Origin: a virus
Lineage: Duplodnaviria > Caudoviricetes
Strand: one strand, 5' to 3'
Virus record (IMG/VR): IMGVR_UViG_3300028591_000117
Coordinates: 59,530 to 123,529 of that record
Length of the DNA stretch: 64,000 bases
In this document: positions 14,230-64,000 of the stretch, one piece after another
Numbering within the stretch: position 1 is the stretch's first letter
Layout of the letters: each line of letters begins with the position of its first letter
The notes under the pieces: generated by a model
What the model saw: the letters and a program-made list of their open reading frames with translations, nothing else
What the model was told of the DNA's origin: nothing
The model's database searches: none
Made by a program: the position numbers and the translations under genes

Positions 14230-14260
14230 AATATATAAAAAAAGAGCTTATATAGCTCTT
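14230..14260 (-). terminator. Terminator fused to a TTATATATT late-promoter-like motif
   Basis: AAGAGCT-ATATA-AGCTCTTTTTTT then ATATATT on the minus strand. Confidence 0.75.
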
Positions 14261-14645
14261 AGTTTATTTCTAATATTTTATTTATTAAACTAGCTAAAGA
14301 CTCAGTAGTATCAGCATAAACTCCTTTTACTCGTAAGTTATCAACTAGTTGAGACTTACAAGATTGAATTTCTGTTATATATGGAAGAGTATCAACATAT
14401 TTTAAGTTATCTTTTTCAGATATAGCTTCTAGGTCTCCACCATAAGTTATAAATTCTAATAATCTTACTACATTTTTAATATCAGAAAATGTCATATTTA
14501 AAGCTCTTGGAAAAGAAGCAAATGGACTTTCATCAGTTATATAATCTCCTCCACCAATATCTTTAATAATAGTTCTTAATCTATTTTTAATTATATTTAT
14601 TTCAGTTAATTTTTCTAATAACGTATTACTTTCAATATTAGCCAT
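14259..14645 (-). CDS. Putative tail-fibre adaptor made of two copies of a docking module
   Basis: Two L..I...K..L...I/L...G repeats, also present at the N-termini of the two neighbouring genes. Confidence 0.55.
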   Translation of the reverse strand: MANIESNTLLEKLTEINIIKNRLRTIIKDIGGGDYITDESPFASFPRALNMTFSDIKNVVRLLEFITYGGDLEAISEKDNLKYVDTLPYITEIQSCKSQLVDNLRVKGVYADTTESLASLINKILEIN

Positions 14646-50668: not shown

Positions 50669-52354
50669 CTAGTTCTTTTTCTTTCTTCCAGATTTAACTG
50701 TACCGATTACACCATCTATATTATTATCTTTTTTATATTTCTCAGCTTCTTCTTTAGTTTCAAAGTACTTTGCTTCATCTTTTTTATTTACCCATTCAGT
50801 TTTATTTTTATAATATAAAGGAGACGTATTTGTTCTAGTTTTATAAATCAAATAATACTCTTTATTAGCTTCATTTCTTCCTTTATTACTAGCTTCATTT
50901 AATTTAATACTTTCATTAATTAAAGATTTTATAGTTTTATTCATTATACTTTCTTTAATTTTTGATTGGTCTACCATTTTATTAAGACTTACTTTAGCTT
51001 TGTCACTTAATAGTTCATAACATTGATTTAATGTCATATTACCTTTTTCTATCTGGTCTTTATACCAAGTTAATACAGTTTTAAATACTTTCTGGTCAGA
51101 CATTGCTGCTTCAGTCATAGGTCTTGTTTCTGTTGTTTTATTTTCTTCAGGTATTTCATTATCTAAAATATATTGATAAACTTCTCTTGCACTAGCTTCA
51201 TCACCATAAAAGTCCTCTTCTTCATACTCAGGTTGAACATTAGCTTCATTATATCTAAATACAGTTTCATGTACAATGTCTTCTATATCAGATAATGATT
51301 TCTTTCTCCAATCAACACCTAATTGGTCTGATAAAGCATCATGACACATATCAAGTGCAGCCATATTGCAGTAACTCATAGTATGTCTTTTCTTTTCAAC
51401 TGGTCTCTCTCCTGAATAATCTGTATATGTTTCAAAGTCACTTTCAGTAATTTTCATATCTCTTTTTCTAGCTTTTTCCATAATATTTCTAATATCTGCT
51501 TCAGTATAATCATCTTCATAGATTGTATCTAAAGCTTCTCTTTTATTATGTAAACCATGATATTTTTGTACTTCATCACATATTTCAGATAAATCATAAC
51601 CGGCTATTTCTACTTCTCCTGGAGTAGGTAAAGCATTTTTATGATAATAATTTTTTAAAGCTCTTTTTACATTGTCTGAATTTCCCATTTTGTATTTTTT
51701 AAATGAGTCTAAATCAAATGATTTACCATTTAATATTGCATCATCTAATTCATCTTCAGACATCATAGCATCTTCTTTTAAACTAGTTTTATAACCTTCA
51801 AGAATATTTTTTACTTTATCATCACTATTATTATCTATTTCAGGTTGAACACTTTCAACTATCATATTTAGTCTTGCAGCTTCACATGAAGGTCTAGCAA
51901 CAAAGTCAAATGTAACAAATTGATAGTCTGGGTCTACTATATTATTAGGTCCAACTGAACCAGCACCACGAGAGCTAATACCAATATCAGTTCCATAATC
52001 TATTAACTCAGAAACTATTTTACCTGATGGAGTTGGTAGTATATCTATAGTACCCATTACACTATCACCTTCAATCCACATGTCGTTGATAACATGTGAT
52101 ACATTTTGAAGTGATATTTCTAGTCTTTCTTCTGGATGGTCAAGCTCTCCAACAAGACCATGACTTTCTATCATTTCCTTTACATAATCAGAATTAAGCA
52201 CATTTTCCCATAATTCTTTTGGATATATTCTACCATTTCTATTAGTTTTAAAATCAGATAGAACTCCTTGAATTCTTTTAAGAACATTAGCTGGCTTGTG
52301 CTCTAAAACTTTAAACTTAGACTTAGTAGACTCTGTTAATATATTTTTAGCCAT
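50669..52354 (-). CDS. Prohead protease (T4 gp21-like) with a ~370-aa C-terminal extension
   Basis: NRNGRIYP, GELDHP, SHVI, TPSG.I, GISSRGAGS, TFDFVARPS. Confidence 0.92.
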   Translation of the reverse strand: MAKNILTESTKSKFKVLEHKPANVLKRIQGVLSDFKTNRNGRIYPKELWENVLNSDYVKEMIESHGLVGELDHPEERLEISLQNVSHVINDMWIEGDSVMGTIDILPTPSGKIVSELIDYGTDIGISSRGAGSVGPNNIVDPDYQFVTFDFVARPSCEAARLNMIVESVQPEIDNNSDDKVKNILEGYKTSLKEDAMMSEDELDDAILNGKSFDLDSFKKYKMGNSDNVKRALKNYYHKNALPTPGEVEIAGYDLSEICDEVQKYHGLHNKREALDTIYEDDYTEADIRNIMEKARKRDMKITESDFETYTDYSGERPVEKKRHTMSYCNMAALDMCHDALSDQLGVDWRKKSLSDIEDIVHETVFRYNEANVQPEYEEEDFYGDEASAREVYQYILDNEIPEENKTTETRPMTEAAMSDQKVFKTVLTWYKDQIEKGNMTLNQCYELLSDKAKVSLNKMVDQSKIKESIMNKTIKSLINESIKLNEASNKGRNEANKEYYLIYKTRTNTSPLYYKNKTEWVNKKDEAKYFETKEEAEKYKKDNNIDGVIGTVKSGRKKKN

Positions 52355-52368
52355 ATCAATCTACCTCC

Positions 52369-53244
52369 TTACTTAGTTAATATTTTTTCAATTTGTGTAA
52401 GTTCTTCTTTAGTTATGTCTAACCACTTAGTTTCTCCAGTAGTTCCAGTTATTTTTAATCTATAAATATCATCATTCAAATCAAGTTTATTAAACTCATA
52501 TCTACGATATTCCATAACAGATGGGTTTTCTACAGACTCTTTAAAATTTTTAGAATGAAGTTGTTTAAGCTCTCTATTAGTTTTATCTAGTTTCTTCTTT
52601 GCTTCATCATAACCAGCAAGTTCATCTTCAAGTTCTTCTCTATCTTTATTTAATTTAACATACTTACGAGGTCTTCTATTTAATGATTTTTCCTCTGGAG
52701 TTAATGCTTCATCAGGTAAATTATAACCTGTTTTACCTTTATTATCATTCCATTTTTTAGCTTTATTAGCATTATCAGTTTCTTCTTGATAATCATTTGC
52801 AGGTTTATGTAAATAATTATAATAGTCGAATGACTTAGCTCTATCTCCAGTAAAATCTATACGGTCCATATTATTATAATTTTTACTATGGCGATTTTTA
52901 AACTCTAGTTCTTTTTTATAATGTTTTTCACTACTTCCACCAGTATGCCAAATATTATTTCCATCTGGGTCAACACTCAATTGCTTACCGTTAGGACCAT
53001 TAAGATAAATAGTACTTCCATACATTAAATCATCTTCATCACCATATTTATCATATTCATAATTTAAATCACTAGCACTAATTCCCATCTTTTTTAGAGC
53101 TTCTCTATTTTTTCGTAAGCTCTTAGGACCTTTTAAAGCTTGTCTAATTATTTTATTTTTCTCTTCATTTTCTGGATTAAAAGCTTCATTTACTAAGTTA
53201 TTTATAATATTATTATCTACTCTATTAGTTTCAATTAGTCTCAT
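52369..53244 (-). CDS. Putative internal head protein with leader
   Basis: MRLIETNRVDNNIINNLVNE-A leader; paralogue of 46403-47866. Confidence 0.65.
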   Translation of the reverse strand: MRLIETNRVDNNIINNLVNEAFNPENEEKNKIIRQALKGPKSLRKNREALKKMGISASDLNYEYDKYGDEDDLMYGSTIYLNGPNGKQLSVDPDGNNIWHTGGSSEKHYKKELEFKNRHSKNYNNMDRIDFTGDRAKSFDYYNYLHKPANDYQEETDNANKAKKWNDNKGKTGYNLPDEALTPEEKSLNRRPRKYVKLNKDREELEDELAGYDEAKKKLDKTNRELKQLHSKNFKESVENPSVMEYRRYEFNKLDLNDDIYRLKITGTTGETKWLDITKEELTQIEKILTK

Positions 53245-53717
53245 TATTCACCATCTCCTTCATCTTCAAAAGATTGAATTGTTTTTACATTAACTCTTTT
53301 AGCTTTATAGTACTCTAAGTTCTCAATTAACTCTTCTTCTCCAAAACATTTAAGTAACATAAAACCAGTATATTCTATTTTACCATTTTCAGCTTTAACA
53401 CATCTAAATTCGAATACTTCTCCTTCTTCAAATGCTTTAGTTGCTCTAGCAAAACGTTCATCTTGTTTCTTATCGAACTCTTCGTCTTCTCCTCTATTCC
53501 AACCGTCATTATAACCATTGTCATAGTCTTCAGGTCTTTCATTATCATAAGAAACTTCTATTTTATATATGTTTGAACCTTCTTCTGAAGAGTAATCAAC
53601 TTCATTTAATTTAACATATACATCTTTACCTTGAATAACATCCCAATATATATCTTCATAAATACTATTAGACTCACTCAAGTATTTCATTATTTTCTGA
53701 CTTTCATTAAGTTTCAT
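53244..53717 (-). CDS. Putative internal head protein with leader (acidic)
   Basis: Start moved to ATG 53717 (RBS AGGAGG): MKLNESQKIMKYLSE-S. Confidence 0.7.
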   Translation of the reverse strand: MKLNESQKIMKYLSESNSIYEDIYWDVIQGKDVYVKLNEVDYSSEEGSNIYKIEVSYDNERPEDYDNGYNDGWNRGEDEEFDKKQDERFARATKAFEEGEVFEFRCVKAENGKIEYTGFMLLKCFGEEELIENLEYYKAKRVNVKTIQSFEDEGDGE

Positions 53718-53730
53718 ATTTTTCCTCCTA

Positions 53731-54399
53731 TTATTTAATTGGATTAAGCGCTTTTGCTGTTTGTCTTTGTTTATTAGCAACTTCTTTTTTATGCTCTTCA
53801 GAAATTTTAAAAGCCTCATCTATAAACTTTCTACGTATCTCTTCACATTTATCTACACAAGCACTGATAATTTGATGCTTTACTGATAATAGTTTTAAAG
53901 ACATGTCTTTTAGTTTATCTACCGTTTCAGTATCTTTTTCTTCCTCAGCATCTCTAATTACTTCTGGTAATGAAGTAATATCATTTGAACCAAGTACTAG
54001 GTCATAATCAGCCTGACCATCAGGAAGTAACATTACTGAAATTCTATGGTCAAAACCTAACATTCCAGATTTATCATAAGTTATGAACATTGGTCCATAA
54101 ACTTTAATCTCTAAATTATCAACTTCACCAGTATATAAAATTTCACCAACATCAGGATAAGCAAAACCTAGGTCATCATCAACAAGATAGTCTTGAACTA
54201 ACGGACTTTTTATTTTATATAATCTATATAATGGTTGTGCTATATCACTATCTCCTTCATCAAAGTAGCTAAAAGCTATATCATCTAAGTTATTTTGTAA
54301 ATCTTTTAAAGCTTTAATTACTTTATCTGTTGATACTCCTCCTACTTCATAAGTTTCTTTAATATTTCTTAGTATACTTTCACTTAAATTCATTTTCAT
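53731..54399 (-). CDS. Putative internal head protein with leader
   Basis: MKMNLSESILRNIKE-T. Confidence 0.7.
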   Translation of the reverse strand: MKMNLSESILRNIKETYEVGGVSTDKVIKALKDLQNNLDDIAFSYFDEGDSDIAQPLYRLYKIKSPLVQDYLVDDDLGFAYPDVGEILYTGEVDNLEIKVYGPMFITYDKSGMLGFDHRISVMLLPDGQADYDLVLGSNDITSLPEVIRDAEEEKDTETVDKLKDMSLKLLSVKHQIISACVDKCEEIRRKFIDEAFKISEEHKKEVANKQRQTAKALNPIK

Positions 54400-54415
54400 T
54401 TTAAATTCCTCCTAC

Positions 54416-54784
54416 CTATTCCATATTTTTGTATACAAAACTATCTATATCTCTTAAAAGTTCATCTAACTTATTTATTAGTTCATCTTCAGTATATAGA
54501 TATATAACTTTTTCTTTTAAAAATGGTTTATCTTCTTCATACTCATCTTCAGTATGTTTTATCTTTTCCCATTCATCTTTACTATATAACTTTCCTTTAT
54601 ATAGTACTGAGCCTTCTCCATAATTTTTACCATTATAAATAGCTCTTCTCCAACAAATAATATCATATAAAGAACATAACATATTATTTGCATTTAAATA
54701 TAATTCCATTTGTCTTTTGTCTGCTGTTTCTATTTTATATCTAGTTTCAGCTTTCTCAAAAGAGTAATCTTCAAATTCTTCCAT
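54416..54784 (-). CDS. Hypothetical protein without the leader motif
   Basis: ATG 54784 after AGAGG. Confidence 0.7.
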   Translation of the reverse strand: MEEFEDYSFEKAETRYKIETADKRQMELYLNANNMLCSLYDIICWRRAIYNGKNYGEGSVLYKGKLYSKDEWEKIKHTEDEYEEDKPFLKEKVIYLYTEDELINKLDELLRDIDSFVYKNME

Positions 54785-54800
54785 AAACAATACCTCTAAA

Positions 54801-55526
54801 TTAATATAAATCTATAGCTCCATCTGAAGTATATGTATAGTCATAGCTTAAGTCTCTACCTAAAGCATCATAATCAAAATATTGCTCTATAAAGTCTTCA
54901 TTTCCATCACTTACATAACTATCTATCATTACATCTGCTTCTTCTTCGGCTCCACCATATTCTTCTAGTTCTTCTTCAGAATATGTAGACTCTATCATAT
55001 CTATAACAGCTTGTCTATCAATGTAATTTTCTTTATTAGATACTCCTTCAAAACCAACCATATCTACATAAGCTTCACCTAATCCTGCATCATCAGAAAC
55101 TCCAGGAAACCATATATAGTCTCCTCTTTCAAGAACATCTATATATTCATCAACAGTACTATACATTCCTGTTTCCATAGCATTCTTTAAAAGCTCTTTA
55201 TCTTCAAATTCATTATATCTAATTAATTCTTGTAATTTTTCTGGAGCATTATCATACTCAGATACTTCTATAGGACAGTTATCAACATCATTTATAAATG
55301 GTTCATCTTCAGCATATTTCTTACAAAATTCTAAACCTTGTTCTGGAGTCATCCAACCATCTTTAATTCCATAAGCTTCTAAATCTGCACCATACTCATT
55401 ATAATTTTTCCAAGTATTCATATATACCATTATATTATCTGAACTGCTTTCATCTTCTTTAAGTAATCTATGAGGTTTTATAAATGACTCTTTAAGGTTT
55501 CTTTGTATACTGTTAAATATACTCAT
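54801..55526 (-). CDS. ardA: ArdA-like antirestriction DNA-mimic protein with an N-terminal leader
   Basis: VY..TW..YNE.G.....GW, FIND....EVSEY and YFDYDALGRDL; very acidic. Confidence 0.82.
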   Translation of the reverse strand: MSIFNSIQRNLKESFIKPHRLLKEDESSSDNIMVYMNTWKNYNEYGADLEAYGIKDGWMTPEQGLEFCKKYAEDEPFINDVDNCPIEVSEYDNAPEKLQELIRYNEFEDKELLKNAMETGMYSTVDEYIDVLERGDYIWFPGVSDDAGLGEAYVDMVGFEGVSNKENYIDRQAVIDMIESTYSEEELEEYGGAEEEADVMIDSYVSDGNEDFIEQYFDYDALGRDLSYDYTYTSDGAIDLY

Positions 55527-55537
55527 ATTTACACCTC

Positions 55538-56308
55538 CTATTTCTTTATATTTATATCACTAACTCTAGCAATTACATTATTATTTAAAGTAACTACTAA
55601 GTAATTATCTTCACTAGCAGCTAGCTTCATTTGTCTTGAGTTTAATCTTGTTGTATTATAAGTAAGACCAGTAAGTTCATTTAAATAAGAACAAGCTTCA
55701 CTAACTGATTTATTTAATAGTTCATTTTTTAAATTATCTGCATCAACTACTTCTGTAGTTTCAGGTACTTCATCAGGAGTTGTTGTTTCCATCTCAGCTT
55801 TTCCACGAGTTTCTTCTTCAATATATCTCTTAACTTCTCCTATAGATTTAAATTCAAGGTCAGTAAAACCATTACCAATATCTACATCCCAATATGAATA
55901 ATCTGGAGTAAATGAATGATATATTGTTTTACAATTATCAGGTGAATAGCCATCAGTTGTAGGAGCATCACTAGCCCACATTCCATTAGCACATCCTGAA
56001 GCTCCAACTTTAAAACAACAATATTTATCAAAACCAAGTTTTATTGCTTGTTGTAAAAATGCTTTCATTTGTTTTAATTTACTTATAGACAAATACTCAG
56101 GCCACCAGTCAAATATAGCTAATTCATTATAAATATTATCTATTCTCCATCTAGCTCCTGGATAAGCATTACTTAATAGCTTATCTATATTAGCTATTAC
56201 ATTTGCAGGAACAGAGTTAGAATAATCTTTATTTCCTTTAGCTTCATTTAATTTCTTTATTTTATTATCTTGAGAAATACTCTCAAATATTTTAGCACTT
56301 ATATTCAT
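55538..56308 (-). CDS. Leader-bearing protein of unknown function
   Basis: MNISAKIFES...KKLNE-A leader; conserved-looking core CFKVGASGCANGMWA...DGYSP...SF....YW. Confidence 0.75.
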   Translation of the reverse strand: MNISAKIFESISQDNKIKKLNEAKGNKDYSNSVPANVIANIDKLLSNAYPGARWRIDNIYNELAIFDWWPEYLSISKLKQMKAFLQQAIKLGFDKYCCFKVGASGCANGMWASDAPTTDGYSPDNCKTIYHSFTPDYSYWDVDIGNGFTDLEFKSIGEVKRYIEEETRGKAEMETTTPDEVPETTEVVDADNLKNELLNKSVSEACSYLNELTGLTYNTTRLNSRQMKLAASEDNYLVVTLNNNVIARVSDINIKK

Positions 56309-56319
56309 ATTTATACCTC

Positions 56320-57852
56320 CTATATATTTCTACTTTTTATTATTCCATTATCTCTCATCTTTTGAATTATTCTAGATGCTTCAGAGTATGGTATATGTAA
56401 AGCCAACTGTAAATCTGCAGTAGATAACTTTTTATTTTCTCTAGCAAATTGAAGAGCTTTATTATAATTTTCATCTGTTTTTTCTTTTTGAGTACTCTCT
56501 TTAGGTTTATCTTGATTATCTTCTCGAGTTCCATATTTATTATTTACAGACTTAACTATATCTTCTACTTCTTCATCAGATACAAAAGCTCCTTGAACTC
56601 TCTTAGCATTAGTTGAACCTATAGGCTTATATAACATGTCACCTTTACCTAAAAGTTTTTCAGCTCCACCTTGGTCTAAAATAGTTCTACTATCAACTTG
56701 TGATGGAGTAGTAAATGCTATACGTGAGTTAATATTAGATTTAATAACTCCAGTTACAACATCAACTGAAGGTCTTTGAGTAGCTACAATTAAATGAATT
56801 CCAGCGGCTCTCGCTAACTGAGTTAATCTCTGAATTGAGCTCTCAACTTGTTTTCCAGCAGTTTGCATTAAATCAGCTAACTCATCAATTATAACTATTA
56901 TATAAGGCATTAACTTAGCATTTTTACCTGACTCATTATATTTATTAACTAAGTTATTATACGAAGCTATATTTTTAACACCAACTTTTTCAAAATCTGA
57001 GTATCTTTTATCCATAACATTAGTTAACTCATCTAAAGTATCAGCCGCTTTTTGTGGGTCTGTAACTATAGGCATTAATAAATGTGGAATTGATTTATAA
57101 GCTGCAAGTTCTACTTTTTTAGGGTCTATCAATATTAATTTAACTTGGTCAGGACTATATGTTTCTATTAAACTACATATCATTGAGTTTATACAAGCTG
57201 ATTTACCTGAACCTGTAGTTCCACCAATTAAGATATGTTGTAACTTTAAGATATCTGCTGAAACTGAATTTCCATTAGTATCTTTACCTAAAGCCATACT
57301 AACTCCAGACTTGTCTGAGTCTTTCATAACATCATCTAATGATACTGATGTATCTTCTTTATTAGGAACTTGAATACCTAAAGTTGTAGAACCTTCAACA
57401 GAACCTATACTTACATTCTTAACAGCTAAACCCATAGCTATCTCTTTATTTAAATTAGATACTTCACTTATTTTAGTACCTGGAGCAAGTTCATACTCAT
57501 ATTGAGTTACTCTAGGACCTACTTTAGCATTAACTAGTTCTACTTTAACTCCATAGTTACTAAGTATTTTACTTATCTTTTCTCCAGTCTCTTTCAATTC
57601 AGGAGATAAATTAACTTCTTCTTTATTTTCTTCTTTATACTCATTAACCATTTTTTCAAGAGATTGTTTAACCAAATGTATATCTTCTTGGTCATTATTA
57701 CATCTTTTAGCAATTTCTTGAGATGGGTCTCTAGTAAAATCACCTTTTTCTTTATCGAAATAATGACTAAATATATCCATAGCTATCTCATCAGTATCTA
57801 ACATATTATCTTGTTCATATAGATAACTTAATAAATTTTTAGTTATACTCAT
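56320..57852 (-). CDS. ftsK: FtsK/SpoIIIE DNA translocase (alpha-beta motor plus gamma domain, no membrane domain) with an N-terminal leader
   Basis: GPRVTQYE, HILIGGTTGSGKS, IDPKKVEL, IIDELADLM, ARAAGIHLIVATQRPS, GAEKLLGKGDML; C-terminal winged helix LQ..L.I.Y..A.RI...M...GII. Confidence 0.93.
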   Translation of the reverse strand: MSITKNLLSYLYEQDNMLDTDEIAMDIFSHYFDKEKGDFTRDPSQEIAKRCNNDQEDIHLVKQSLEKMVNEYKEENKEEVNLSPELKETGEKISKILSNYGVKVELVNAKVGPRVTQYEYELAPGTKISEVSNLNKEIAMGLAVKNVSIGSVEGSTTLGIQVPNKEDTSVSLDDVMKDSDKSGVSMALGKDTNGNSVSADILKLQHILIGGTTGSGKSACINSMICSLIETYSPDQVKLILIDPKKVELAAYKSIPHLLMPIVTDPQKAADTLDELTNVMDKRYSDFEKVGVKNIASYNNLVNKYNESGKNAKLMPYIIVIIDELADLMQTAGKQVESSIQRLTQLARAAGIHLIVATQRPSVDVVTGVIKSNINSRIAFTTPSQVDSRTILDQGGAEKLLGKGDMLYKPIGSTNAKRVQGAFVSDEEVEDIVKSVNNKYGTREDNQDKPKESTQKEKTDENYNKALQFARENKKLSTADLQLALHIPYSEASRIIQKMRDNGIIKSRNI

Positions 57853-57875
57853 ACATTCAATCTCCTTTCTAATAT

Positions 57876-57884
57876 TATATATAA
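57876..57884 (-). promoter_or_regulatory. TTATATATA late-promoter-like motif upstream of the FtsK gene
   Basis: Minus strand AAATTATATATAATATTAGAAAGGAG. Confidence 0.5.
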
Positions 57885-57916
57885 TTTAGAAGACTTTGTG
57901 TATTGGAAAAAGTTGG

Positions 57917-58843
57917 CTATTTTCTTCTAATAAGTTTCTTTCCAAAAGTCTCTAGCTCTTGATTAACTTTAATAGGAACTCCATTTTTATCTACAATAAC
58001 AGTTACCCACCAGCAAGATTTATCATTATTAAAACCCATACTTCTTTCATAAGGAGTTAAATCTTGTAGACAAGATGTTTGAAAACAATGCGTTATTCCT
58101 TGTTTCATATAGAAAGCTTGATGTATATGACCTGTTTGTAAAATATGAGGTCTTTCTTCCATTGGAATAGAGTCTAAATATTTTTGAAGCTTATATGACC
58201 TTGCATAAGCTTGACCTCCAATTCCATGATATAACCTAACTCTTAATTTTCCTATTTGTAAATCTTCACAATCAGAACCTAAATAATGTAAATCAGGTCT
58301 TAATAAACAAATATCTCTTAATATATCTGAACCATTATTCTTATACCACATAGCTTCATGATTTCCAGCTATTAAAAATGTTGGTATCTCAGATTGAGGA
58401 TATCTATCAACTACATAGTCTCTTTGACCAGCATAAGAAGTTTCTTTTAATTCATAAACATGCTGAGGTCGATTACTTCTACCATCAACTAAATCTCCAG
58501 AATGTAATATATAATTAACTCCTCTTCTTTCTGCTTCAGAGTATAAATATCTAAGTATATCGAGTCTATCATATTTTGAAGCAAGATGTGTATCTGAAAT
58601 TAATAATAGTTTAATAGTTTCTAAATTACAAGGTAATGAATAAACTCCATTATCTTTTATAGGTCTATCTAATTTAATAACTTTACCATCAATAATATCA
58701 AATAAATATCCTTTTTCTTTTAGCATCATAATTAAACCATATACTTGATAATACTCTAAACCTAAATCTTTACATATACTTTCTAAATCTCTACTTTTAA
58801 CTTTATTTAGATAAAGTTTCATTTTATCTAAAAGCTCTTCCAT
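57917..58843 (-). CDS. Calcineurin-like metallophosphoesterase with an N-terminal HTH-like domain
   Basis: ISDTHL, HSGDLVDG, AGNHE, LYHG, GHIH. Confidence 0.9.
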   Translation of the reverse strand: MEELLDKMKLYLNKVKSRDLESICKDLGLEYYQVYGLIMMLKEKGYLFDIIDGKVIKLDRPIKDNGVYSLPCNLETIKLLLISDTHLASKYDRLDILRYLYSEAERRGVNYILHSGDLVDGRSNRPQHVYELKETSYAGQRDYVVDRYPQSEIPTFLIAGNHEAMWYKNNGSDILRDICLLRPDLHYLGSDCEDLQIGKLRVRLYHGIGGQAYARSYKLQKYLDSIPMEERPHILQTGHIHQAFYMKQGITHCFQTSCLQDLTPYERSMGFNNDKSCWWVTVIVDKNGVPIKVNQELETFGKKLIRRK

Positions 58844-58852
58844 TCTTTCCTC

Positions 58853-59449
58853 CTATCTCATTCGATTATATCTATCATAACGAAGTTTTAAGACTTTTTG
58901 CTCTTCTTCAGTTGCTCCTTCCATAAGTCTATCATAATAACCACAAGGTTTATACTCAGGACATCCTCCACAACGAACACATTCAGGAACACATGCCCAA
59001 TAAATATCTTCATCATATTCTTTAATTGCTTCTAATACAGCTTTCCAATATACTCTAGTTAATGGGTCTGCACAAGTACAAAGTCTTTTTCTAGATATAT
59101 TTATTAATGCTTGTATATTAGCTTCCATTTCCATTTGAACCATGTCCATTTGAGTTCTTTGACTTCTATCTTTAATCTCTGTTCTATCAGCTCTTGATGT
59201 ACTTACCCACTTCTCTACTCCTTCATGATGTCTTACAAAGTGAGTTGATATACAATAAGGTATTTCATCGAACTTCCAAGAAACTGAACCTCTTCTAATT
59301 GGAGAATGCTCACATAATAAAAGTCTTCTCTTCCATTCCTGAGAAGGCTCTTTATCTCCAGCTTCTTTTGATATTGTTGTCATACATGCTGACTTAATCT
59401 TCTTCCAATCTATATCATAATCTGTAATTCTTACTTTAACTTCTTCCAT
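58853..59449 (-). CDS. thyX: FAD-dependent thymidylate synthase (ThyX-like)
   Basis: EHSPIR, STHFVRHH...STSR, N..ALI...RKRLC..A, VP.C...G.CPE..PCG. Confidence 0.8.
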   Translation of the reverse strand: MEEVKVRITDYDIDWKKIKSACMTTISKEAGDKEPSQEWKRRLLLCEHSPIRRGSVSWKFDEIPYCISTHFVRHHEGVEKWVSTSRADRTEIKDRSQRTQMDMVQMEMEANIQALINISRKRLCTCADPLTRVYWKAVLEAIKEYDEDIYWACVPECVRCGGCPEYKPCGYYDRLMEGATEEEQKVLKLRYDRYNRMR

Positions 59450-59451
59450 AA

Positions 59452-60006
59452 TTAATTCTCCTTATTTTTATTATTTATATTTTTACTAATACAATCTCTA
59501 CATAATGGTACATATTCTGAATTTCCAACCATTATATCTTCAGTTTTATCTACTAGACAATATGTATATTCAGCATCTCTTCCACAATGCTCACACCTTG
59601 CTTTTAATTTCACTACATCAGTGGCTATTGCTAATATATCAGGCATGATATTAAATGGAGTTAATTCTGATGTCATATCTAGTCCAGCTATATAAATATC
59701 AATCTTATTATAAATCGTTAACCAGAGAAGCTCCTGGACATCTCCAGATAAAAACTGGACTTCATCAATTATAATAGTGTCTATATCTTCAGTTATATAA
59801 TTTTTAATTTGAGATAAATCTTTAATAACATAAGCATCTAGAGTATCTTCAATAGCTCTACTTCTTATTTTACTTTTATCTCTTGTATCTTTACTAGGTT
59901 TAAAACAAATTACATTATCTATATCTTTTTTCTTTCTTACTTTTGCTGCTTGTATAAGTCCTAGTGACTTTGCTGCATACATTGGTCCTGTAAATACTTT
60001 AATCAT
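59452..60006 (-). CDS. tdk: Thymidine kinase (TK1-type)
   Basis: TGPMYAAKS, FKP..DTR, IIDEVQF, AGLD....PF, KL.ARC..CG, YVPLCR.C. Confidence 0.93.
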   Translation of the reverse strand: MIKVFTGPMYAAKSLGLIQAAKVRKKKDIDNVICFKPSKDTRDKSKIRSRAIEDTLDAYVIKDLSQIKNYITEDIDTIIIDEVQFLSGDVQELLWLTIYNKIDIYIAGLDMTSELTPFNIMPDILAIATDVVKLKARCEHCGRDAEYTYCLVDKTEDIMVGNSEYVPLCRDCISKNINNKNKEN

Positions 60007-60212
60007 TTTCTCTTAACATAATGTCTATCGAACTCTTCATAAAGCACACAGCTTGGAGCTTGTTGCCATTCTGTTCGAAGAACTATTCCTTCCTTAAATA
60101 TTTCTTTATCTAATTTATCTAACATATAATATTTCTGCTCTTCATTATAAAATACTTCAATAAGTTCATATCTTGAATTATCTCTTCTTCTAGCCCAAAG
60201 TTCAAACTGCAT
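60003..60212 (-). CDS. Hypothetical protein
   Basis: 69-aa ORF coupled to its neighbours on both sides. Confidence 0.7.
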   Translation of the reverse strand: MQFELWARRRDNSRYELIEVFYNEEQKYYMLDKLDKEIFKEGIVLRTEWQQAPSCVLYEEFDRHYVKRK

Positions 60213-60757
60213 CAGACTACCTCTATCTCCAATATCTCTTGTTCTGATAATCCTTGTTTAAACTTAGCTAAATCTTCTAGTTCCTGGTTATCTTCTTCAG
60301 GTTCTTTTTCTACATGTTTATTTTCATTTGATAAATCTTCAAGAGTCATAGTTATTAAACTAAATGCTTGGTCTACATAGTCTTTACTTGATAAATCAAT
60401 TATACCAGTATTTTCTGTTTTACCATTATAAGTAACTTTAACAAACATATCATACTTAGCTATTCTATTTTGTAGTCCAGGCTCATATCGATTTATAAAC
60501 TCAAGAGTAACTCTTTTATCATTTTCATCTCTTCCAATATAAATTACATTACCAGGACCTTCTTCAATAGGTTTACTTAGCATATTAATTCCATAGTTCC
60601 TTAATATAGGAAATAGCTTAGTATCTATTCTTTGCTCATAAACTTGGTCCATGTGTTTATATCTAGGACCTGCAATATGTTTCCATTTAGTCGCTTCATC
60701 TAGAGAATTATCTTTACTTTTTTGTAAATTAATTAATATCTGATTATGTGCTTTCAT
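60212..60757 (-). CDS. Putative internal head protein with leader
   Basis: MKAHNQILINL...SLDE-A. Confidence 0.65.
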   Translation of the reverse strand: MKAHNQILINLQKSKDNSLDEATKWKHIAGPRYKHMDQVYEQRIDTKLFPILRNYGINMLSKPIEEGPGNVIYIGRDENDKRVTLEFINRYEPGLQNRIAKYDMFVKVTYNGKTENTGIIDLSSKDYVDQAFSLITMTLEDLSNENKHVEKEPEEDNQELEDLAKFKQGLSEQEILEIEVV

Positions 60758-60777
60758 ATAAATCTCCTTTCTAATTT

Positions 60778-60813
60778 AATATATAAAAAGAAGGCTCTAA
60801 GAACCTTCTTTTT
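60778..60813 (-). terminator. Terminator fused to TTATATATT
   Basis: AAAAAGAAGG..CCTTCTTTTT then ATATATT. Confidence 0.75.
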
Positions 60814-62338
60814 CATCAATTAAATCTTCCAGTCTATCTACTATCTCGCGCTTTAAACCTTGTTCTTCATTAGGTAATGCTTCACCAACAATGTCTGTTA
60901 GAATATCTCCTTTGTCTGTACTTGGAATAATCTGAAGTGTTTTAGCTAAGTCTGACATAATTTCAATTCTAGATAAACCTAAGTAATCTTCCATCTCAGA
61001 CCAGTCCCACTGAGCAACCATGTCATATTGATTTTGAACAGCAAGAGGTTGTTTCTGCATTTTATCTTCTTTATTACCTTCAAGATACTTATTCATATCA
61101 TCTGAAATAGCCAATAATACAAATGGTTTCATTACATAGTCAATAACAGACAAAATATGCTTACAAGCACCACCATTTAATCTTACATTATTAACTTTAG
61201 GAGCTTGTATAGCTTTCTTTAAATTAGGAATTCTATCATCAATATATAAGAAGTCATTTTTATATGCTTGATGTGCCCAAGCCCAAAAAGCAAATGACTC
61301 ATCAGTACACCAAATATTAACATCTTGGTCTTGAAAATTTTTCTTTATGTCATCAGGCATAATCTTATTTCCTGACTTAATAATATCTTCAAATGGTTTC
61401 ATATCTTTAAATTCTATTGTCTGATAATGATATCCACTTCTGGTTTCTGAAGTTGTTTTAAAATTTAATATACCAAACTTACTCATTCCTATGTAAGTTG
61501 TTTTAACATTTCTAGACTTTTGAATTCTTCTAGGGTCTTGATTTTGAGACTTCTGTTTTATTTGAGATAACTTCATTTCAACTAAATATTCTTCTTTATC
61601 TTTATGAAGAACATTACAAATAATATTCTCAATATCTTCAGAACGTTCACTATTTATATTTGATAAAGCACTATTTATACTGTTATAACCTAACTGTTTC
61701 AATTTAGCTTTTATACTAGCTTTCTCTTCTCTGCTAGCATCTTTTATTAATTGAGTTAATACTCTCTTCTTATTAATACTAGACTCACTTTCATCTAGCT
61801 CTCCTCTAGTAATTTTCCACATATCCTTAGAATAATCTTTTGGAACTTTATGAAATATCTCTTCACACATATCTTTAGCAAAATCTGGTTGTATAACATA
61901 TTCTTTATTAGCATCCCAATAATCTGATGGACCTTCATCATGCTGTCCAGCCATACTCAACCAGTCACATATTCTTTCTATAACATATAGTTTATATTCT
62001 TCTTCATCTATATTGTCTATTAAGTTATTATCTCCATCTATCCAATAATCCCAATGATGTTTATTGTTTTTTATATGATGTCTACAAGCTAATTCAAATT
62101 CTTCTTGTTTCATTCCTTCTTCATCATTAGTTGGATAAAAATGATGAAGATATGCTGACCACTCAGGTTCTTCATATTTAGAAGCATCATGCTCTTTTAC
62201 TATTTCTCTTAATTCATCTATATGCTCTTTTACATAAGGAATATCTAATGTATATAATAATTCTAATGCTTTTGATACATTTCCTATATGTCCTGTTAAA
62301 TATTCTTTATATTTTTCTATTGATTGTTCTTGAGTCAT
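60797..62338 (-). CDS. Multidomain protein: HD-like (DUF5662-type) domain plus SWIM-like zinc-finger domain
   Basis: H...V...HDASK...H...N.HH..YW...D.LS; later WCTDESF.FW...N.RL.G.ACKHI; LDE-S and LVE-M sites between the domains. Confidence 0.65.
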   Translation of the reverse strand: MTQEQSIEKYKEYLTGHIGNVSKALELLYTLDIPYVKEHIDELREIVKEHDASKYEEPEWSAYLHHFYPTNDEEGMKQEEFELACRHHIKNNKHHWDYWIDGDNNLIDNIDEEEYKLYVIERICDWLSMAGQHDEGPSDYWDANKEYVIQPDFAKDMCEEIFHKVPKDYSKDMWKITRGELDESESSINKKRVLTQLIKDASREEKASIKAKLKQLGYNSINSALSNINSERSEDIENIICNVLHKDKEEYLVEMKLSQIKQKSQNQDPRRIQKSRNVKTTYIGMSKFGILNFKTTSETRSGYHYQTIEFKDMKPFEDIIKSGNKIMPDDIKKNFQDQDVNIWCTDESFAFWAWAHQAYKNDFLYIDDRIPNLKKAIQAPKVNNVRLNGGACKHILSVIDYVMKPFVLLAISDDMNKYLEGNKEDKMQKQPLAVQNQYDMVAQWDWSEMEDYLGLSRIEIMSDLAKTLQIIPSTDKGDILTDIVGEALPNEEQGLKREIVDRLEDLIDEKEGS

Positions 62339-62358
62339 ACATCTTACCTCCTATTTTA

Positions 62359-62390
62359 AATATATAAAAAAAGAACTCTTAGAGTTCTTT
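62359..62390 (-). terminator. Terminator fused to TTATATATT
   Basis: AAAGAACTCT-A-AGAGTTCTTTTTTT then ATATATT. Confidence 0.8.
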
Positions 62391-62910
62391 AATTTATTTT
62401 CTTAAAACCAAGACTATCAACATAGTATAGTTCATTATTAATTTCTATAATATCACTTACAGAAATACTTCTAAACTTACCTTGTACATTAAACTCATCT
62501 TTATTAGTATTTCCTAAAACAAATATTTGTTCTAATACTTCATCAATAGAACCTTTCTTAGGTAATACTATAGAAGCGACAGCTTCATAGTCATTCATGT
62601 TTATATCATCTTTAACATAGTCATAAGCCATAAAAGCATACTTACAATTAGCTACATCTTTTATTTGATATATAGTTGCTGAATAACTTGTAGTATCTTC
62701 ATCTATATAACTATATTCAGTAAGAGCTTCATATTGTTCCATACGAATACTATTTAGCTCGAGTATCATTTTCTCTATAGCACTTACAGCTCTTTCATCT
62801 TTACACGCAGCTCTTACTTTTAATAAAGCTTGCTCAGCATCATTACATAAATAATACCAATCTTCTTTATTCTCTTTTAAATTAGAAAGTATCTGATTAT
62901 TTACTCTCAT
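62389..62910 (-). CDS. YodL-like domain protein with leader
   Basis: IYQIK...F..Y...Y..V...LEQIF...N...RSISVSDII...YYVDSLGF. Start moved to ATG 62910 (RBS GAGGAGG): MRVNNQILSNLKE. Confidence 0.75.
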   Translation of the reverse strand: MRVNNQILSNLKENKEDWYYLCNDAEQALLKVRAACKDERAVSAIEKMILELNSIRMEQYEALTEYSYIDEDTTSYSATIYQIKDVANCKYAFMAYDYVKDDINMNDYEAVASIVLPKKGSIDEVLEQIFVLGNTNKDEFNVQGKFRSISVSDIIEINNELYYVDSLGFKKIN

Positions 62911-62911
62911 C

Positions 62912-64000
62912 TTATACCTCCTCATATTTTGCTATATTCTTTAAATCTTTAAAGCTATAAGGTTCTCCACAATAAGGACATGTATATTCAGTTCCGTAGC
63001 CTTTATAGAACTCTCTATCAAAATCATTTATACTTTTAATTGACTTATGACAATATGAACAAACGTAATTTTTAATTTTTCTGTCATATAAACTATCTAA
63101 AGTAGCTTCTTCATCAGAACCAGGTTCTATAGCTAAGTCTCTTTTAACATCAGATATATCTTCATTAATTACTCTACCATGATATTTTGAAGGATACTGT
63201 TTTATTAAATTATTATTAACTAACTCATTTATCTCTTGTTCATTATAATATCCTAGTTTAATTAAAGCATCACATATATCTTGGTATCTACCTATAAAAT
63301 CAACAAAATACATAGGTCCTTCTTTATGAATTTGAAAGTTTAACTTAGGAAATTCAGGTTTATATGTAGACCATATCATACTTTGTGCATCAGATTTATC
63401 TTCTGACTCAGCATTAGAATAAATGTATAACTTCTCTTCTGACTCATTTAAATTTTCTGTTTCATTAAACCAATAGTCCATACCTTCATCATCATTCCAA
63501 TGCTCTAGATAGTAATCATAAATTCTCTTAGATATTTTATCAAAACTTAAAAATGAGATATATTCAGGTAATAATAAACCTTCACCACCAGAAATCCATT
63601 GAGGACCTTTAGACTCATCACGATAGGTATATGGTTTATCTTCACTATTGTGTCTCTTTGCTCTATTATCTAAAAAGAATGCAGTATAGTCCATATTACC
63701 GGTATCCATAAATCCAACTAGTTTTCCATCTTCTATGAAGTCAACTTCATACTCATCAACTTCCATAAACTCTCTTGCAAATTTTCCTTCTTCTGGGTCA
63801 AGGAAGCCATAATATACATTATAACCTAGTTTATTATCAATTTTACCTTTACAATACTCGATAAATTTATCTTTATAACTCATTTTACTTGGTTCTGCTT
63901 TTGGTTCTTCAACATCTTCTGACTCATTCATACTAAGACCTAACTTTTTATTAACTAAAGATATAACTTCTTCATCAGTCATATCTAAACTAAAGTCATC
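62912..64000 (-). CDS. Partial multidomain putative head protein (5' end beyond the window) with a C-terminal zinc ribbon
   Basis: The frame is open to the window edge (DDFSLD-MTDEE). MNE-S, LNE-S and INE-D separate segments; C-terminal C..C...CPYC. Confidence 0.7.
   Translation of the reverse strand, partial: DDFSLDMTDEEVISLVNKKLGLSMNESEDVEEPKAEPSKMSYKDKFIEYCKGKIDNKLGYNVYYGFLDPEEGKFAREFMEVDEYEVDFIEDGKLVGFMDTGNMDYTAFFLDNRAKRHNSEDKPYTYRDESKGPQWISGGEGLLLPEYISFLSFDKISKRIYDYYLEHWNDDEGMDYWFNETENLNESEEKLYIYSNAESEDKSDAQSMIWSTYKPEFPKLNFQIHKEGPMYFVDFIGRYQDICDALIKLGYYNEQEINELVNNNLIKQYPSKYHGRVINEDISDVKRDLAIEPGSDEEATLDSLYDRKIKNYVCSYCHKSIKSINDFDREFYKGYGTEYTCPYCGEPYSFKDLKNIAKYEEV

What the first reader, a model, noticed from the sequence alone, without database searches (positions are those of the whole stretch)
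52369..64000. Shared 13-aa leader on unrelated proteins: a capsid-targeting, co-injected cargo system
Seen, N-termini that align without gaps: MSIFNSIQRNLKE (ArdA), MSITKNLLSYLYE (FtsK), MRVNNQILSNLKE (YodL-like), MNLSESILRNIKE (53731), LNESQKIMKYLSE (53244), MKAHNQILINLQK..LDE (60212), MNISAKIFESISQ..LNE (55538) and NRVDNNIINNLVNE (52369). The consensus is M-x-h-x3-I-h-x-N/Y-L-x-E. The same L-x-E ends the protease (ILTE-S) and capsid (LTE-A) propeptides, whereas interleaved ThyX, TK and 54416 lack the leader. Established: T4 internal proteins carry a short capsid-targeting sequence removed by gp21 at L/I-x-E and are injected with the DNA. Inference: a modular tag that loads anti-restriction, DNA-motor and unknown domains into the head so they act before phage gene expression. 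The unknown cargoes are anti-defence candidates and the leader is a potential protein-delivery tag.
Basis: partly seen in the sequence, partly recalled or inferred. Interest (0 to 1): 0.9.

Follow-up and report, generated by a model that had tools for sequence, protein, structure and literature searches.

The report
Capsid-loading leader peptides on phage proteins
An uncultured 123-kb AT-rich phage puts a short N-terminal tag, ending in the cutting motif of its own T4-type head protease, on about fifteen unrelated proteins (including an ArdA-like anti-restriction protein and an FtsK-like DNA motor), so they are probably loaded into the capsid and trimmed there as in phage T4; no cut or packaging has been measured.

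Summary
All eight quoted N-termini are in the sequence behind strong ribosome-binding sites. The tag is 9-24 residues long, not a fixed 13: an amphipathic stretch followed by L/I-x-E and a small or acidic residue. It is enriched at N-termini and concentrated in the portal-to-capsid gene block (9 of 19 genes against 10 of 135 elsewhere). It also sits on six more proteins outside the window.

Comparative data carry the case. All 66 distinct N-extensions of ArdA-like relatives keep an L-x-E just before the domain. About 36 of 40 FtsK-like orthologues keep a leader. Two small proteins share 14 identical leader residues with only synonymous DNA differences, and their similarity stops at the Glu. 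Related phages carry different tagged genes at the same place.

The phage has a gp21-type protease and a gp23-type capsid protein whose predicted maturation site (LTE65|A66) lies where T4's does.

Best reading: a T4-style capsid-targeting propeptide in a separate, uncultured phage lineage, carrying new cargo types. Cleavage, packaging and injection are inferred, not shown. The principle is established for T4, so this is a new variant of a known kind. This scan has noted similar leaders on other phage genomes.

The parts
54801..55526 (-). ArdA-like protein (241 aa, pI 4.05). The leader is residues 1-24 (w55455-55526), with LKE13|S and LKE24|D.
   Evidence: Pfam ArdA scores 23.6 bits, below the cut-off of 27, but 12/20 homologues match (best E 5.8e-10). 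The AF2 model has pLDDT 86.7, with a helix at 3-10, no regular structure at 11-32 and pLDDT about 50 over 11-30. The only significant Foldseek hit is ArdA 2W82 (E 6e-4). All 66 distinct N-extensions of homologues keep [LIMV]-x-E; in 58 of them it lies 8-11 aa before the domain.
56320..57852 (-). FtsK-like motor (510 aa) with alpha, beta and gamma domains. There is no membrane domain. The leader MSITKNLLSYLYE|Q is at w57814-57852.
   Evidence: Pfam FtsK_alpha, FtsK_SpoIIIE and FtsK_gamma all score above their cut-offs. About 36 of 40 phage orthologues keep a leader ending [LIVF]-x-E, while the cellular-type hit P0281 does not. Orthologues in L085, L088 and L090 are also tagged.
62389..62910 (-). 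YodL-like protein (173 aa from the second ATG). The leader MRVNNQILSNLKE|N is at w62872-62910.
   Evidence: Pfam YodL E 2.9e-11 over residues 83-177. The identical leader is present in L085. A terminator-like hairpin lies at w62390-62370, straight after the gene.
60212..60757 (-). Conserved head-block protein (181 aa) with a 21-aa leader ending LDE|A (w60695-60757). It is more likely a head-core component than exchangeable cargo.
   Evidence: It is homologous to the ~293-aa gene directly upstream of the protease in L005 (E 6e-12). That copy has no leader. Tagged orthologues occur in L085, L088 and L090.
55538..56308 (-). Unknown protein (256 aa) with a 22-aa leader ending LNE|A (w56243-56308).
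   Evidence: No Pfam, PHROG or Atlas match. It is absent from L085, L088 and L090.
53731..54399 (-). Unknown protein (222 aa) with a 15-aa leader ending IKE|T (w54355-54399).
   Evidence: No family or fold lead.
53244..53717 (-). Unknown acidic protein (157 aa) with a 15-aa leader ending LSE|S (w53673-53717).
   Evidence: The start was chosen by its strong SD. The orthologue in L090 begins with nearly the same leader.
52369..53244 (-). Charged protein (291 aa, pI 7.0) directly upstream of the protease, with a 20-aa leader ending VNE|A (w53185-53244). It is a candidate core or scaffold protein.
   Evidence: Weak similarity (E 6e-5) to a tagged 308-aa protein of L006. No Pfam or PHROG match.
62912..63982 (-). 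356-aa protein with a C-terminal zinc-ribbon-like motif. It has a weaker candidate leader of 20 aa ending MNE|S (w63923-63982).
   Evidence: It did not score in the PSSM test, so it counts as doubtful.
50669..52354 (-). Prohead protease (561 aa). It has a gp21-type S77 domain (about residues 36-190), a variable insert, a conserved C-terminal domain (about residues 330-486) and a variable tail. The N-terminus is MAKNILTE8|S.
   Evidence: Pfam Peptidase_S77 E 5e-19. A profile of 14 homologues hits the T4 gp21 structure 5JBL at E 3e-11. D72-H73-P74 and G125-I-S-S-R-G130 are invariant. In relatives the insert carries an LPD11 domain.
49101..50459 (-). Major capsid protein (452 aa from the conserved ATG). 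The N-terminus is MQVREYLTE9|N and the predicted maturation site is LTE65|A66 (propeptide w50265-50459).
   Evidence: Pfam Gp23 E 9e-54. Relatives start at the same Met. T4 gp23 reads FLTE65|AEIGG at the same position.
54416..54784 (-). Leaderless 122-aa protein just downstream of the ArdA-like gene in the window and L085, and two small genes after it in L088. It serves as an in-operon negative control.
57917..60006 (-). Leaderless enzymes inside the same block: phosphoesterase (w57917-58843), ThyX-like protein (w58853-59449) and thymidine kinase (w59452-60006).
   Evidence: Pfam Metallophos, Thy1 (weak) and TK. Their N-termini lack the tag.
57876..57884 (-). Promoter-like motif (a variant of TTTATATAT) 32 nt upstream of the FtsK-like gene. 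Full copies lie at about w62367 and w60786.
   Evidence: TTTATATAT occurs 17 times in the genome in the gene sense, 12 of them in the 7.9% that is intergenic. It also precedes the portal gene, the 629-aa gene between g5217 and that motif (probable large terminase, no Pfam match) and the gene after the MCP. No terminator-like site of 7 or more stem pairs lies between w62370 and w49073 on the gene strand (one weak 6-pair match at w56817-56801).

Best explanation
The shared N-terminal segment is a prohead-targeting propeptide of the T4 type. It is a short amphipathic helix on a flexible tether, and the tether ends in the L/I-x-E motif cut by the phage's gp21-family protease.

Proposed mechanism:
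1. Late in infection the tagged proteins are made together with the portal, the protease-scaffold protein and the capsid protein.
2. The tag takes them into the assembling prohead core.
3. The protease then removes the tag, as it removes the 65-residue capsid propeptide and its own N-terminus.
4. The mature proteins stay inside the head with the DNA.
5. At least the ArdA-like protein would then enter the next host with the DNA and block type I restriction before any phage gene is expressed.

Shown here: the motif, its enrichment and conservation, the protease and capsid families, the ArdA fold, and the turnover of tagged genes between relatives. Inferred: targeting, cleavage, retention and ejection. 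Some tagged proteins (w60212, w52369) are probably core or scaffold parts that are degraded rather than delivered.
For: (1) T4-type head machinery. Pfam gives Gp23 for the MCP, Peptidase_S77 for the protease and Portal_T4 for the portal. The protease profile hits T4 gp21 (5JBL) at E 3e-11.

(2) Same cutting grammar as T4. The MCP has LTE65|A66 against T4 gp23 FLTE65|A66. The protease has ILTE8|S against T4 gp21 LLIE9. T4 IPII and IPIII read MKTYQEFIAE|A, gp24 reads MAKINELLRE|S and gp22 reads MLKEQLIAE|A. The L/I-x-E rule and the 10-residue CTS are described in PMC9026906 and PMC5694885.

(3) N-terminal enrichment and clustering in the portal-to-MCP block.

(4) Conservation of the site but not of the rest of the leader. 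All 66 of 66 distinct ArdA-type leaders keep [LIMV]-x-E, with P3 = Leu in 59. In 58 the site lies 8-11 residues before the domain, while the remaining leader falls into about ten unrelated classes. FtsK-type leaders are kept in about 36/40 orthologues.

(5) Modularity. The mature parts of 15 tagged proteins share no BLASTP similarity. Two small proteins share 14 identical leader residues with 4 synonymous and 0 non-synonymous DNA differences, and their similarity ends at Glu14. A relative's homologue of g48053 carries a different leader, and homology starts at L-x-E|DFWNP.

(6) Different tagged genes occupy the same slot upstream of the protease in L085, L088 and L090. This resembles the variable T-even internal-protein loci (PMC12373910).

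(7) Structure. The ArdA leader is predicted as a short helix (3-10) followed by a coil of about 20 residues, with pLDDT about 50 over residues 11-30, that holds both sites, so they would be accessible to a protease.

(8) Cargo types. ArdA and YodL domains are typical of 'polyvalent proteins' transferred with DNA by conjugative elements (PMC5512222). In relatives, a domain of that repertoire (LPD11) is inserted in the protease polypeptide itself.

(9) Leaderless metabolic enzymes (TK, ThyX-like, phosphoesterase) sit in the same block, so the tag is not a property of the operon.

(10) A promoter-like motif is shared with the portal gene and a probable large-terminase gene (no Pfam match), and no strong terminator lies before the MCP.
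Against: There is no direct evidence of cleavage, packaging or ejection, and no cultured relative carries the tag. The nearest cultured phages (SP-15, LIS04, HSE3) show no enrichment: 2 of 80 ORFs.

The leader is not sequence-homologous to the T4 CTS; it shares only the pattern. The tagged proteins are acidic (pI 4.0-5.5) whereas T4 IPs are basic (PMC9026906); the whole proteome here has a median pI of 5.1.

A 57-kDa hexameric ATPase is an odd passenger for a capsid. The generic motif has an 8-11% background and the bare L-x-E is common. A few non-head N-termini, such as the tail-fibre proteins w16192 and w14259, fit loosely.

Late timing is inferred from a promoter-like motif only. The mid-distance homologue of w60212 lacks any leader.
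Confidence: 0.6

Rival explanations
1. The tag does target proteins to the prohead and is cut there. However, the tagged proteins are assembly-core or scaffold components that are degraded or expelled at maturation (like T4 gp22, gp67 and gp68), not cargo delivered to the next host.
For: w60212 is conserved next to the protease across the wider family. w52369 is a charged protein of no known family directly upstream of the protease. T4 core proteins carry similar N-termini (gp22). No separate scaffold gene lies between protease and MCP.
Against: Several tagged proteins are folded enzymes or effectors with functions outside assembly: an ArdA fold, a complete FtsK motor and a YodL domain. Their presence varies between close relatives, which is unlike essential scaffold parts. 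This probably holds for a subset only.
Confidence: 0.15
2. The leader is a recognition tag for something other than the prohead. Candidates are a modifying enzyme (RiPP-like, as an earlier scan note proposed for a shared tag in phage RB43), the phage's chaperonin, or a membrane or replication compartment. On this reading the L-x-E is part of that recognition element.
For: Amphipathic N-terminal helices can bind many partners (median hydrophobic moment 0.55 against 0.44 for other N-termini). A second cluster of tagged genes lies far from the head genes at genome 43-49 kb.
Against: The only radical-SAM gene in the genome lies directly upstream of a 747-aa gene that by its N-terminal sequence looks like an anaerobic ribonucleotide reductase (no family search run), so it is probably that enzyme's activase. 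The invariant element is exactly the gp21 cutting motif. It also marks the MCP and protease at the T4-equivalent positions. Genes move between the distal cluster and the slot next to the protease in relatives.
Confidence: 0.1
3. There is no function. The resemblance would come from AT-rich codon use at gene starts (Lys, Asn, Ile, Leu, Glu) plus the high frequency of L-x-E, picked out by eye.
For: Bare L-x-E is only 1.2-fold enriched at N-termini. The generic rule hits 8% of internal pseudo-N-termini. De novo EM gave only a modest gain over controls.
Against: The Glu and the P3 Leu are kept in all 66 divergent ArdA-type leaders at a fixed distance from the domain. There are synonymous-only differences in a duplicated leader. 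Clustering is strong (Fisher p 4e-5) and is replicated in relatives: 34% against 10%, p 2e-7.
Confidence: 0.03

Closest known systems
Phage T4 internal proteins IPI, IPII, IPIII and Alt, with the capsid targeting sequence (CTS) removed by gp21 (Mullaney and Black 1996; PMC9026906, PMC3012670, PMC12373910)
   Same: Both have a short N-terminal propeptide ending in L/I-x-E on otherwise unrelated proteins. Both have a gp21-family protease, gp23-family capsid and gp20-family portal. The MCP propeptide ends at the same residue (E65|A66). The tagged gene set varies between relatives, and an anti-restriction protein is among the cargo (T4 IPI-III inhibit GmrSD).
   Different: The lineage is different and uncultured: 28% GC, with SP-15-like Firmicute phages as the nearest cultured relatives at 36-39% MCP identity. 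The leader sequence is not homologous, is often longer (13-24 aa) and is sometimes bipartite (helix plus K-P-x-K-x-L-x-E). The cargo is acidic and includes large enzymes. The tagged genes sit mainly between portal and protease. The protease is fused to a long scaffold-like extension. Nothing has been shown experimentally.
Propeptides of giant phages phiKZ, 201phi2-1 and SPN3US, cut by gp175/gp245 at (S/A/G)-x-E (PMC5694885, PMC10052503)
   Same: A diverged gp21-type protease cuts after Glu. Paralogous ejection proteins share identical N-termini. Some leaders hold several cutting sites.
   Different: The giant-phage propeptides are mostly over 100 residues and the P3 residue is small (A/S/G). 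Here the leaders are T4-length with Leu/Ile at P3.
Polyvalent proteins of phages and conjugative elements (Iyer, Burroughs, Anand, de Souza, Aravind 2017, PMC5512222)
   Same: The effector domains are the same (ArdA, YodL, LPD11) and are predicted to travel with the DNA. The genes lie next to late virion genes.
   Different: In polyvalent proteins the domains are strung in one giant polypeptide, often with an embedded metallopeptidase. Here most are single-domain proteins, each with its own leader, and the presumed processing enzyme is the prohead protease.
Phage P1 DarA/DarB/Hdf anti-restriction head proteins (PMC9024508)
   Same: These are virion-packaged proteins that protect incoming DNA from type I restriction. 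PMC5512222 states that DarA is proteolytically processed.
   Different: The proteins are unrelated and the capsid system is not T4-type. No shared short leader with a Glu-specific site is known.

Membership tests
T4-type CTS / gp21-processed head proteins | The phage encodes a gp21-family (S77) prohead serine protease with the catalytic His and Ser | tested here: met
   Pfam Peptidase_S77 E 5e-19. The profile hits 5JBL at E 3e-11. H73 and S127 are invariant and align to the two Ala positions of that chain; from memory, that chain is an inactive mutant.
T4-type CTS / gp21-processed head proteins | A short N-terminal propeptide (about 7-20 aa) ending in L/I-x-E, followed by a small residue | tested here: met
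   There are 15 proteins with the site ending at residues 10-24. P3 is Leu or Ile in all but three (Val in w52369, Met in the doubtful w62912, and g43712 only if cut at NDE rather than LFE). P1' is S, A, D, N, T, Q or G. T4 controls were read from NC_000866.
T4-type CTS / gp21-processed head proteins | The leader is shared by otherwise unrelated proteins | tested here: met
   There is no BLASTP similarity among the 15 mature parts. Identical 14-aa leaders sit on two unrelated small proteins.
T4-type CTS / gp21-processed head proteins | Sequence homology of the leader to the T4 CTS (MKTYQEFIAE) | tested here: not met
   Only the pattern (amphipathic stretch plus L/I-x-E) is shared. It works like a CTS but is not the same sequence family.
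T4-type CTS / gp21-processed head proteins | The leader is necessary and sufficient for incorporation into the prohead core | not testable with these tools
   This needs genetics or packaging assays.
T4-type CTS / gp21-processed head proteins | The leader is removed by the protease during maturation, and the mature protein is present in virions and ejected | not testable with these tools
   No proteomics data and no cultured member are available. Only conservation of the site supports it.
ArdA (PF07275) | A match to the family model above its curated cut-off | tested here: inconclusive
   The window copy scores 23.6 bits against a cut-off of 27. Of 20 homologues, 12 match, with best E 5.8e-10.
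ArdA (PF07275) | ArdA fold and a strongly acidic, DNA-mimic-like surface | tested here: met
   The AF2 model (pLDDT 86.7) has ArdA 2W82 as its only significant PDB match (E 6e-4, TM 0.62 by target). pI is 4.05. Inhibition of type I enzymes was not tested.
FtsK/SpoIIIE translocases | Alpha, beta (RecA-like, Walker A/B) and gamma domains | tested here: met
   PF17854, PF01580 and PF09397 all score above their cut-offs. GGTTGSGKS and IIDELAD are present.
FtsK/SpoIIIE translocases | An N-terminal membrane anchor and a long linker | tested here: not met
   The first 74 residues are the leader plus an acidic soluble segment. The cellular-type hit P0281 has a hydrophobic N-terminus instead.
Polyvalent proteins (PMC5512222) | Several unrelated effector domains in one polypeptide | tested here: not met
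   The window proteins are single-domain. Only the relatives' protease carries an extra LPD11 domain.

The most novel reading that the evidence does not exclude
The FtsK-like hexameric DNA translocase is itself packaged through its leader and ejected with the genome. It would then act at the cell entry site as a virion-borne motor, pulling the rest of the phage DNA in or clearing or protecting it before any phage gene is expressed. More broadly, this uncultured lineage would use one exchangeable tag to deliver a whole toolkit (ArdA-like, YodL-like, motor, unknowns) ahead of gene expression.
Probability: 0.2. Interest if true: 0.85.

Novelty: new variant of a known kind. Interest (0 to 1): 0.55.

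Why it matters
If true, the T4 way of loading changeable proteins into the capsid is not confined to T-even phages. It would also operate, with its own tag, in a large uncultured lineage of AT-rich phages whose nearest cultured relatives infect Firmicutes. The tag would then give a sequence-only way to list that lineage's candidate injected proteins. The list includes an ArdA-type restriction inhibitor, a YodL-type domain, a complete FtsK-type motor and several proteins of no known family, which are candidates for anti-defence or take-over functions. It would also give a second, independent leader for packaging foreign proteins into phage heads. The principle itself is already known and used in T4, which limits the surprise.

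Tried and rejected
Neighbourhoods of the many close protease and ArdA homologues could therefore not be fetched. Related loci came only from the search for related loci.
- Megablast of the region against phage records found no match. A single-protein scan of viral contigs found nothing.
- tblastn of the ArdA-like protein against phage and plasmid records found no match.
- Sequence and profile searches of the ArdA-like family against PDB found no ArdA hit. Only the fold search found it.
- PHROGs and Pfam gave nothing for w52369, w53244, w53731, w54416, w55538 and w60212. The ESM Atlas gave no usable hit for w55538 or w53731.
- phmmer of the first 34 residues of the ArdA-like protein against 1.8 billion representatives was meant as a census of other cargo behind the same leader. 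It returned only two short hits, because the query is too short.
- De novo EM motif search on all N-termini recovered a motif ending [LI]-x-E, but with only a modest likelihood gain over internal controls. I do not lean on it.
- Complex prediction of the whole protease with residues 1-40 of the ArdA-like protein returned 'no answer' (score 0.00, controls not run). This is evidence neither for nor against binding.
- The generic leader rule on distant S77-protease phages (L012-L082) showed only a marginal excess (13.4% against 11.3%). That rule does not show that the phenomenon is general.
- Radical-SAM tag idea: the only radical-SAM gene in the genome is the presumed NrdG-type activase.

Full report
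**What the window is.** The window is the last 64 kb of a 123,529-bp virus record. It has 28% GC and nearly all genes lie on the minus strand. CheckV rates the record 86% complete. Megablast finds no phage record. By capsid protein, the nearest cultured phages are Listeria LIS04, Bacillus SP-15 (Thornevirus), B. cereus HSE3 and a Streptococcus phage, at 34-39% identity.

The head machinery is T4-type:
- w49101-50480 is a Gp23-family capsid protein (E 9e-54).
- w50669-52354 starts with a Peptidase_S77 (gp21) domain. A profile of 14 homologues hits the T4 gp21 structure 5JBL at E 3e-11.
- The portal (Portal_T4) lies at genome 1876-3858.

The ORF that runs off the contig start (genome 2-1801) is 57% identical to a gene that, in relative L085, lies directly upstream of the YodL-like gene. 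The two contig ends are therefore neighbours on the genome map. The block portal -> 600-aa ORF -> w62912 -> ... -> protease -> MCP is one head region of 19 genes.

**The observation.** The tag is better described as an amphipathic stretch of 6-20 residues after Met, followed by L/I-x-E and then a small or acidic residue. The site ends at these residues:
- 13: YodL-like, FtsK-like and ArdA-like (first site)
- 15: w53731 and w53244
- 20: w52369
- 21: w60212
- 22: w55538
- 24: ArdA-like (second site)

TK, the ThyX-like protein, the phosphoesterase, the DUF5662 protein, a 69-aa ORF and w54416 are interleaved in the block and lack it.

Outside the window, six more proteins carry the tag. They are genome 2-1801, 5217-6707, 43114-43401, 43411-43719, 43712-46303 and 48053-49330.

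The statistics are:
- A specific pattern gives 13 N-terminal hits against 2.9 expected.
- A PSSM from the eight seeds finds eight further N-termini above the 99.9th percentile of 31,081 internal windows, against 1.75 expected.
- A generic rule not trained on this genome marks 9 of 19 head-block genes against 10 of 135 elsewhere, which equals its 8% background (Fisher p 4e-5).

The leaders have a higher helical hydrophobic moment than other N-termini (median 0.55 against 0.44). The mature parts of the 15 proteins show no pairwise BLASTP similarity.

**Comparative evidence.** This is the strongest part.

- *ArdA-like family.* Among 106 ArdA-like homologues from metagenomes there are 66 distinct N-extensions of 17-38 residues before the conserved domain start. 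They fall into about ten unrelated leader classes, yet all 66 keep [LIMV]-x-E. P3 is Leu in 59, and in 58 the site lies 8-11 residues before the domain. In most classes the site is preceded by K-P-x-K/R-x. In the window protein the conserved site is therefore LKE24|D, with LKE13|S as an extra site.
- *FtsK-like family.* About 36 of 40 orthologues start with a leader ending [LIVF]-x-E. One subgroup has a 7-residue version on a different N-domain. The one cellular-type hit has a hydrophobic N-terminus instead.
- *Duplicated leader.* The two small proteins at genome 43.1-43.7 kb share 14 identical leader residues. Their DNA differs at four positions, all synonymous, and similarity stops directly after the Glu codon.
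- *Leader swap.* A relative's gene next to its protease is homologous to genome 48053-49330 from L-x-E|DFWNP onward (E 2e-18) but has a different leader.
- *Variable slot.* Upstream of the protease, L085 (95% protease identity), L088 and L090 carry different sets of tagged genes around a few constant ones: FtsK-like, the w60212-like protein, ArdA-like (seen in L085 and L088) and w54416-like (L085 and L088). More distant relatives with a short protease (L003-L007) also carry genes starting M-R/K-x-x-x-I-x-x-x-L-N-E|S in their head and neck regions.
- *Replication in relatives.* The generic rule marks 34% of ORFs in the close loci and 24% in the mid-distance loci, against 10% and 7% of internal controls (p about 2e-7 each). 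It shows only a marginal excess in distant S77 phages and none in the SP-15-like cultured phages.

**Parallels with T4, read from the T4 record.**
- IPII and IPIII begin MKTYQEFIAE|A. gp22 begins MLKEQLIAE|A and gp24 begins MAKINELLRE|S.
- gp21 has LLIE9; here the protease has ILTE8|S.
- gp23 reads FLTE65|AEIGG. Here the MCP, counted from the start shared with its relatives, reads KLTE65|AQG.

The literature establishes four points:
- gp21 cuts after L/I-x-E.
- The first 10 residues of IPIII suffice for capsid targeting.
- The IPs share nothing but this leader.
- The IPs are injected and inhibit GmrSD-type restriction enzymes (PMC9026906, PMC5694885, PMC3012670, PMC12373910).

The tag is already used to load foreign proteins into T4 heads (PMC10229621).

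**The cargo.**
- *ArdA-like protein.* Its Pfam score is just below the cut-off (23.6 against 27 bits), but 12 of 20 relatives match the model. An AlphaFold model (pLDDT 86.7) has ArdA 2W82 as its only significant PDB match. In the model the leader is a short helix (3-10), followed to residue 32 by a segment without regular structure (pLDDT about 50 over 11-30) that holds both sites.
- *FtsK-like protein.* It has complete alpha, beta and gamma domains and Walker motifs, but no membrane anchor.
- *YodL-like protein.* It matches PF14191.
- *Link to DNA-co-transferred proteins.* ArdA and YodL domains are known parts of 'polyvalent proteins' that conjugative elements transfer with their DNA (PMC5512222). 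In many relatives the protease polypeptide itself carries an LPD11 domain of that repertoire in its variable insert.
- *Unknowns.* w53244, w53731 and w55538 have no family or fold lead.
- *Probable core components.* w60212 is homologous to a leaderless gene that sits next to the protease in the wider family. w52369 is a charged protein with weak similarity to tagged proteins of L006. These two are more likely core or scaffold components. No separate scaffold gene lies between protease and MCP. The protease has a strongly conserved C-terminal domain (about residues 330-486) that may play that part; this is inference.

**Expression context.** The motif TTTATATAT occurs 17 times in the gene sense, and 12 of these fall in the 7.9% of the genome that is intergenic. 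It precedes the portal gene, the 629-aa gene at genome 6728-8617 (probable large terminase, which has no Pfam match), the gene after the MCP, a holin-like gene, and, within the block, w62338, w60757 and (as a variant) the FtsK-like gene. Terminator-like hairpins lie after the YodL-like gene and after the MCP; between them the scan reports only one weak 6-pair match on the gene strand (w56817-56801). Co-expression with the head genes is therefore likely but not shown.

**Verdict.** The reading as a T4-style capsid-targeting propeptide cut by the prohead protease is the best-supported explanation (about 0.6). Delivery into the host is plausible for the ArdA-like protein, which would be of little use if made late unless it were packaged. 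It is open for the FtsK-like motor and the unknowns.

The rivals are:
- tagged proteins that are only assembly parts (0.15, probably true for a subset);
- a tag for another partner (0.1; the only radical-SAM gene is the presumed NrdG-type activase);
- chance (0.03).

The principle is known from T4 and, in a longer form, from giant phages. This is a new variant: a different lineage, its own leader, often bipartite, with acidic and enzymatic cargo. The scan has recorded similar leaders on other uncultured T4-like phages, one of them with an ArdA-type module.

Noticed in passing
genome 2-1801 (L084:2-1801, minus strand) and window 62912-64000: A 600-aa ORF with a leader (MKNITKSLLE|S) runs off the contig start. 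Joined to the contig end, it stops 13 nt before the ATG of the w62912 gene. Its homologue in L085 lies directly upstream of the YodL-like gene. The contig ends are therefore neighbours on the map, and the record is probably a permuted, near-complete genome.
   Followed up: partly
genome 43114-49330 (L083:2115-8331, minus strand): A second cluster of leader-tagged genes lies far from the head block. It holds two small proteins with identical 14-aa leaders, plus proteins of 863 aa and 425 aa starting MRLL/MRLIE. In relative L088, a homologue of the 425-aa protein sits next to the protease.
   Followed up: partly
window 50669-52354: The protease is 561 aa long. It consists of the S77 domain, a variable insert (about residues 195-330), a nearly invariant domain (about residues 330-486) and a variable tail. 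In relatives the insert holds an LPD11 domain, and the whole protein reaches 590-944 aa. This may be a protease-scaffold-cargo fusion.
   Followed up: partly
window 54416-54784: A leaderless 122-aa protein of unknown function lies just downstream of the ArdA-like gene: adjacent in the window and L085, two small genes away in L088. It may be a partner or helper of the ArdA-like protein.
   Followed up: no
window 60797-62338: A 513-aa protein joins a DUF5662 domain (N-terminal) to a phrog_4315-type domain. In more distant relatives (L003-L007) the phrog_4315-type domain is a separate ~280-aa gene right after the portal. It is conserved in the head block but has no leader.
   Followed up: no
window 14259-14645, 14663-16192, 16192-18396: Three tail-fibre-region proteins share a different N-terminal module (L..L...K..L...I...G...I......F.E.P). 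It loosely matches the leader pattern and is a source of false positives for simple motif rules.
   Followed up: no
window 62390-62370 and 49073-49051; motif copies at about w62367, w60786 and w49048: A terminator-like hairpin is followed immediately by TTTTTATATAT(T)A. This recurs before structural genes (portal, a probable large-terminase gene, a gene after the MCP, a holin-like gene). It is a candidate late promoter resembling T4's TATAAATA.
   Followed up: partly
L095:16062-16886 (phage T4 gene 2): The T4 gp2 DNA-end protector begins MAIFQIINE|S, which fits the generic leader rule. The portals of this phage family begin similarly (M-x-I/L-F-N/S-R/K-K ... L-x-E).
   Followed up: no
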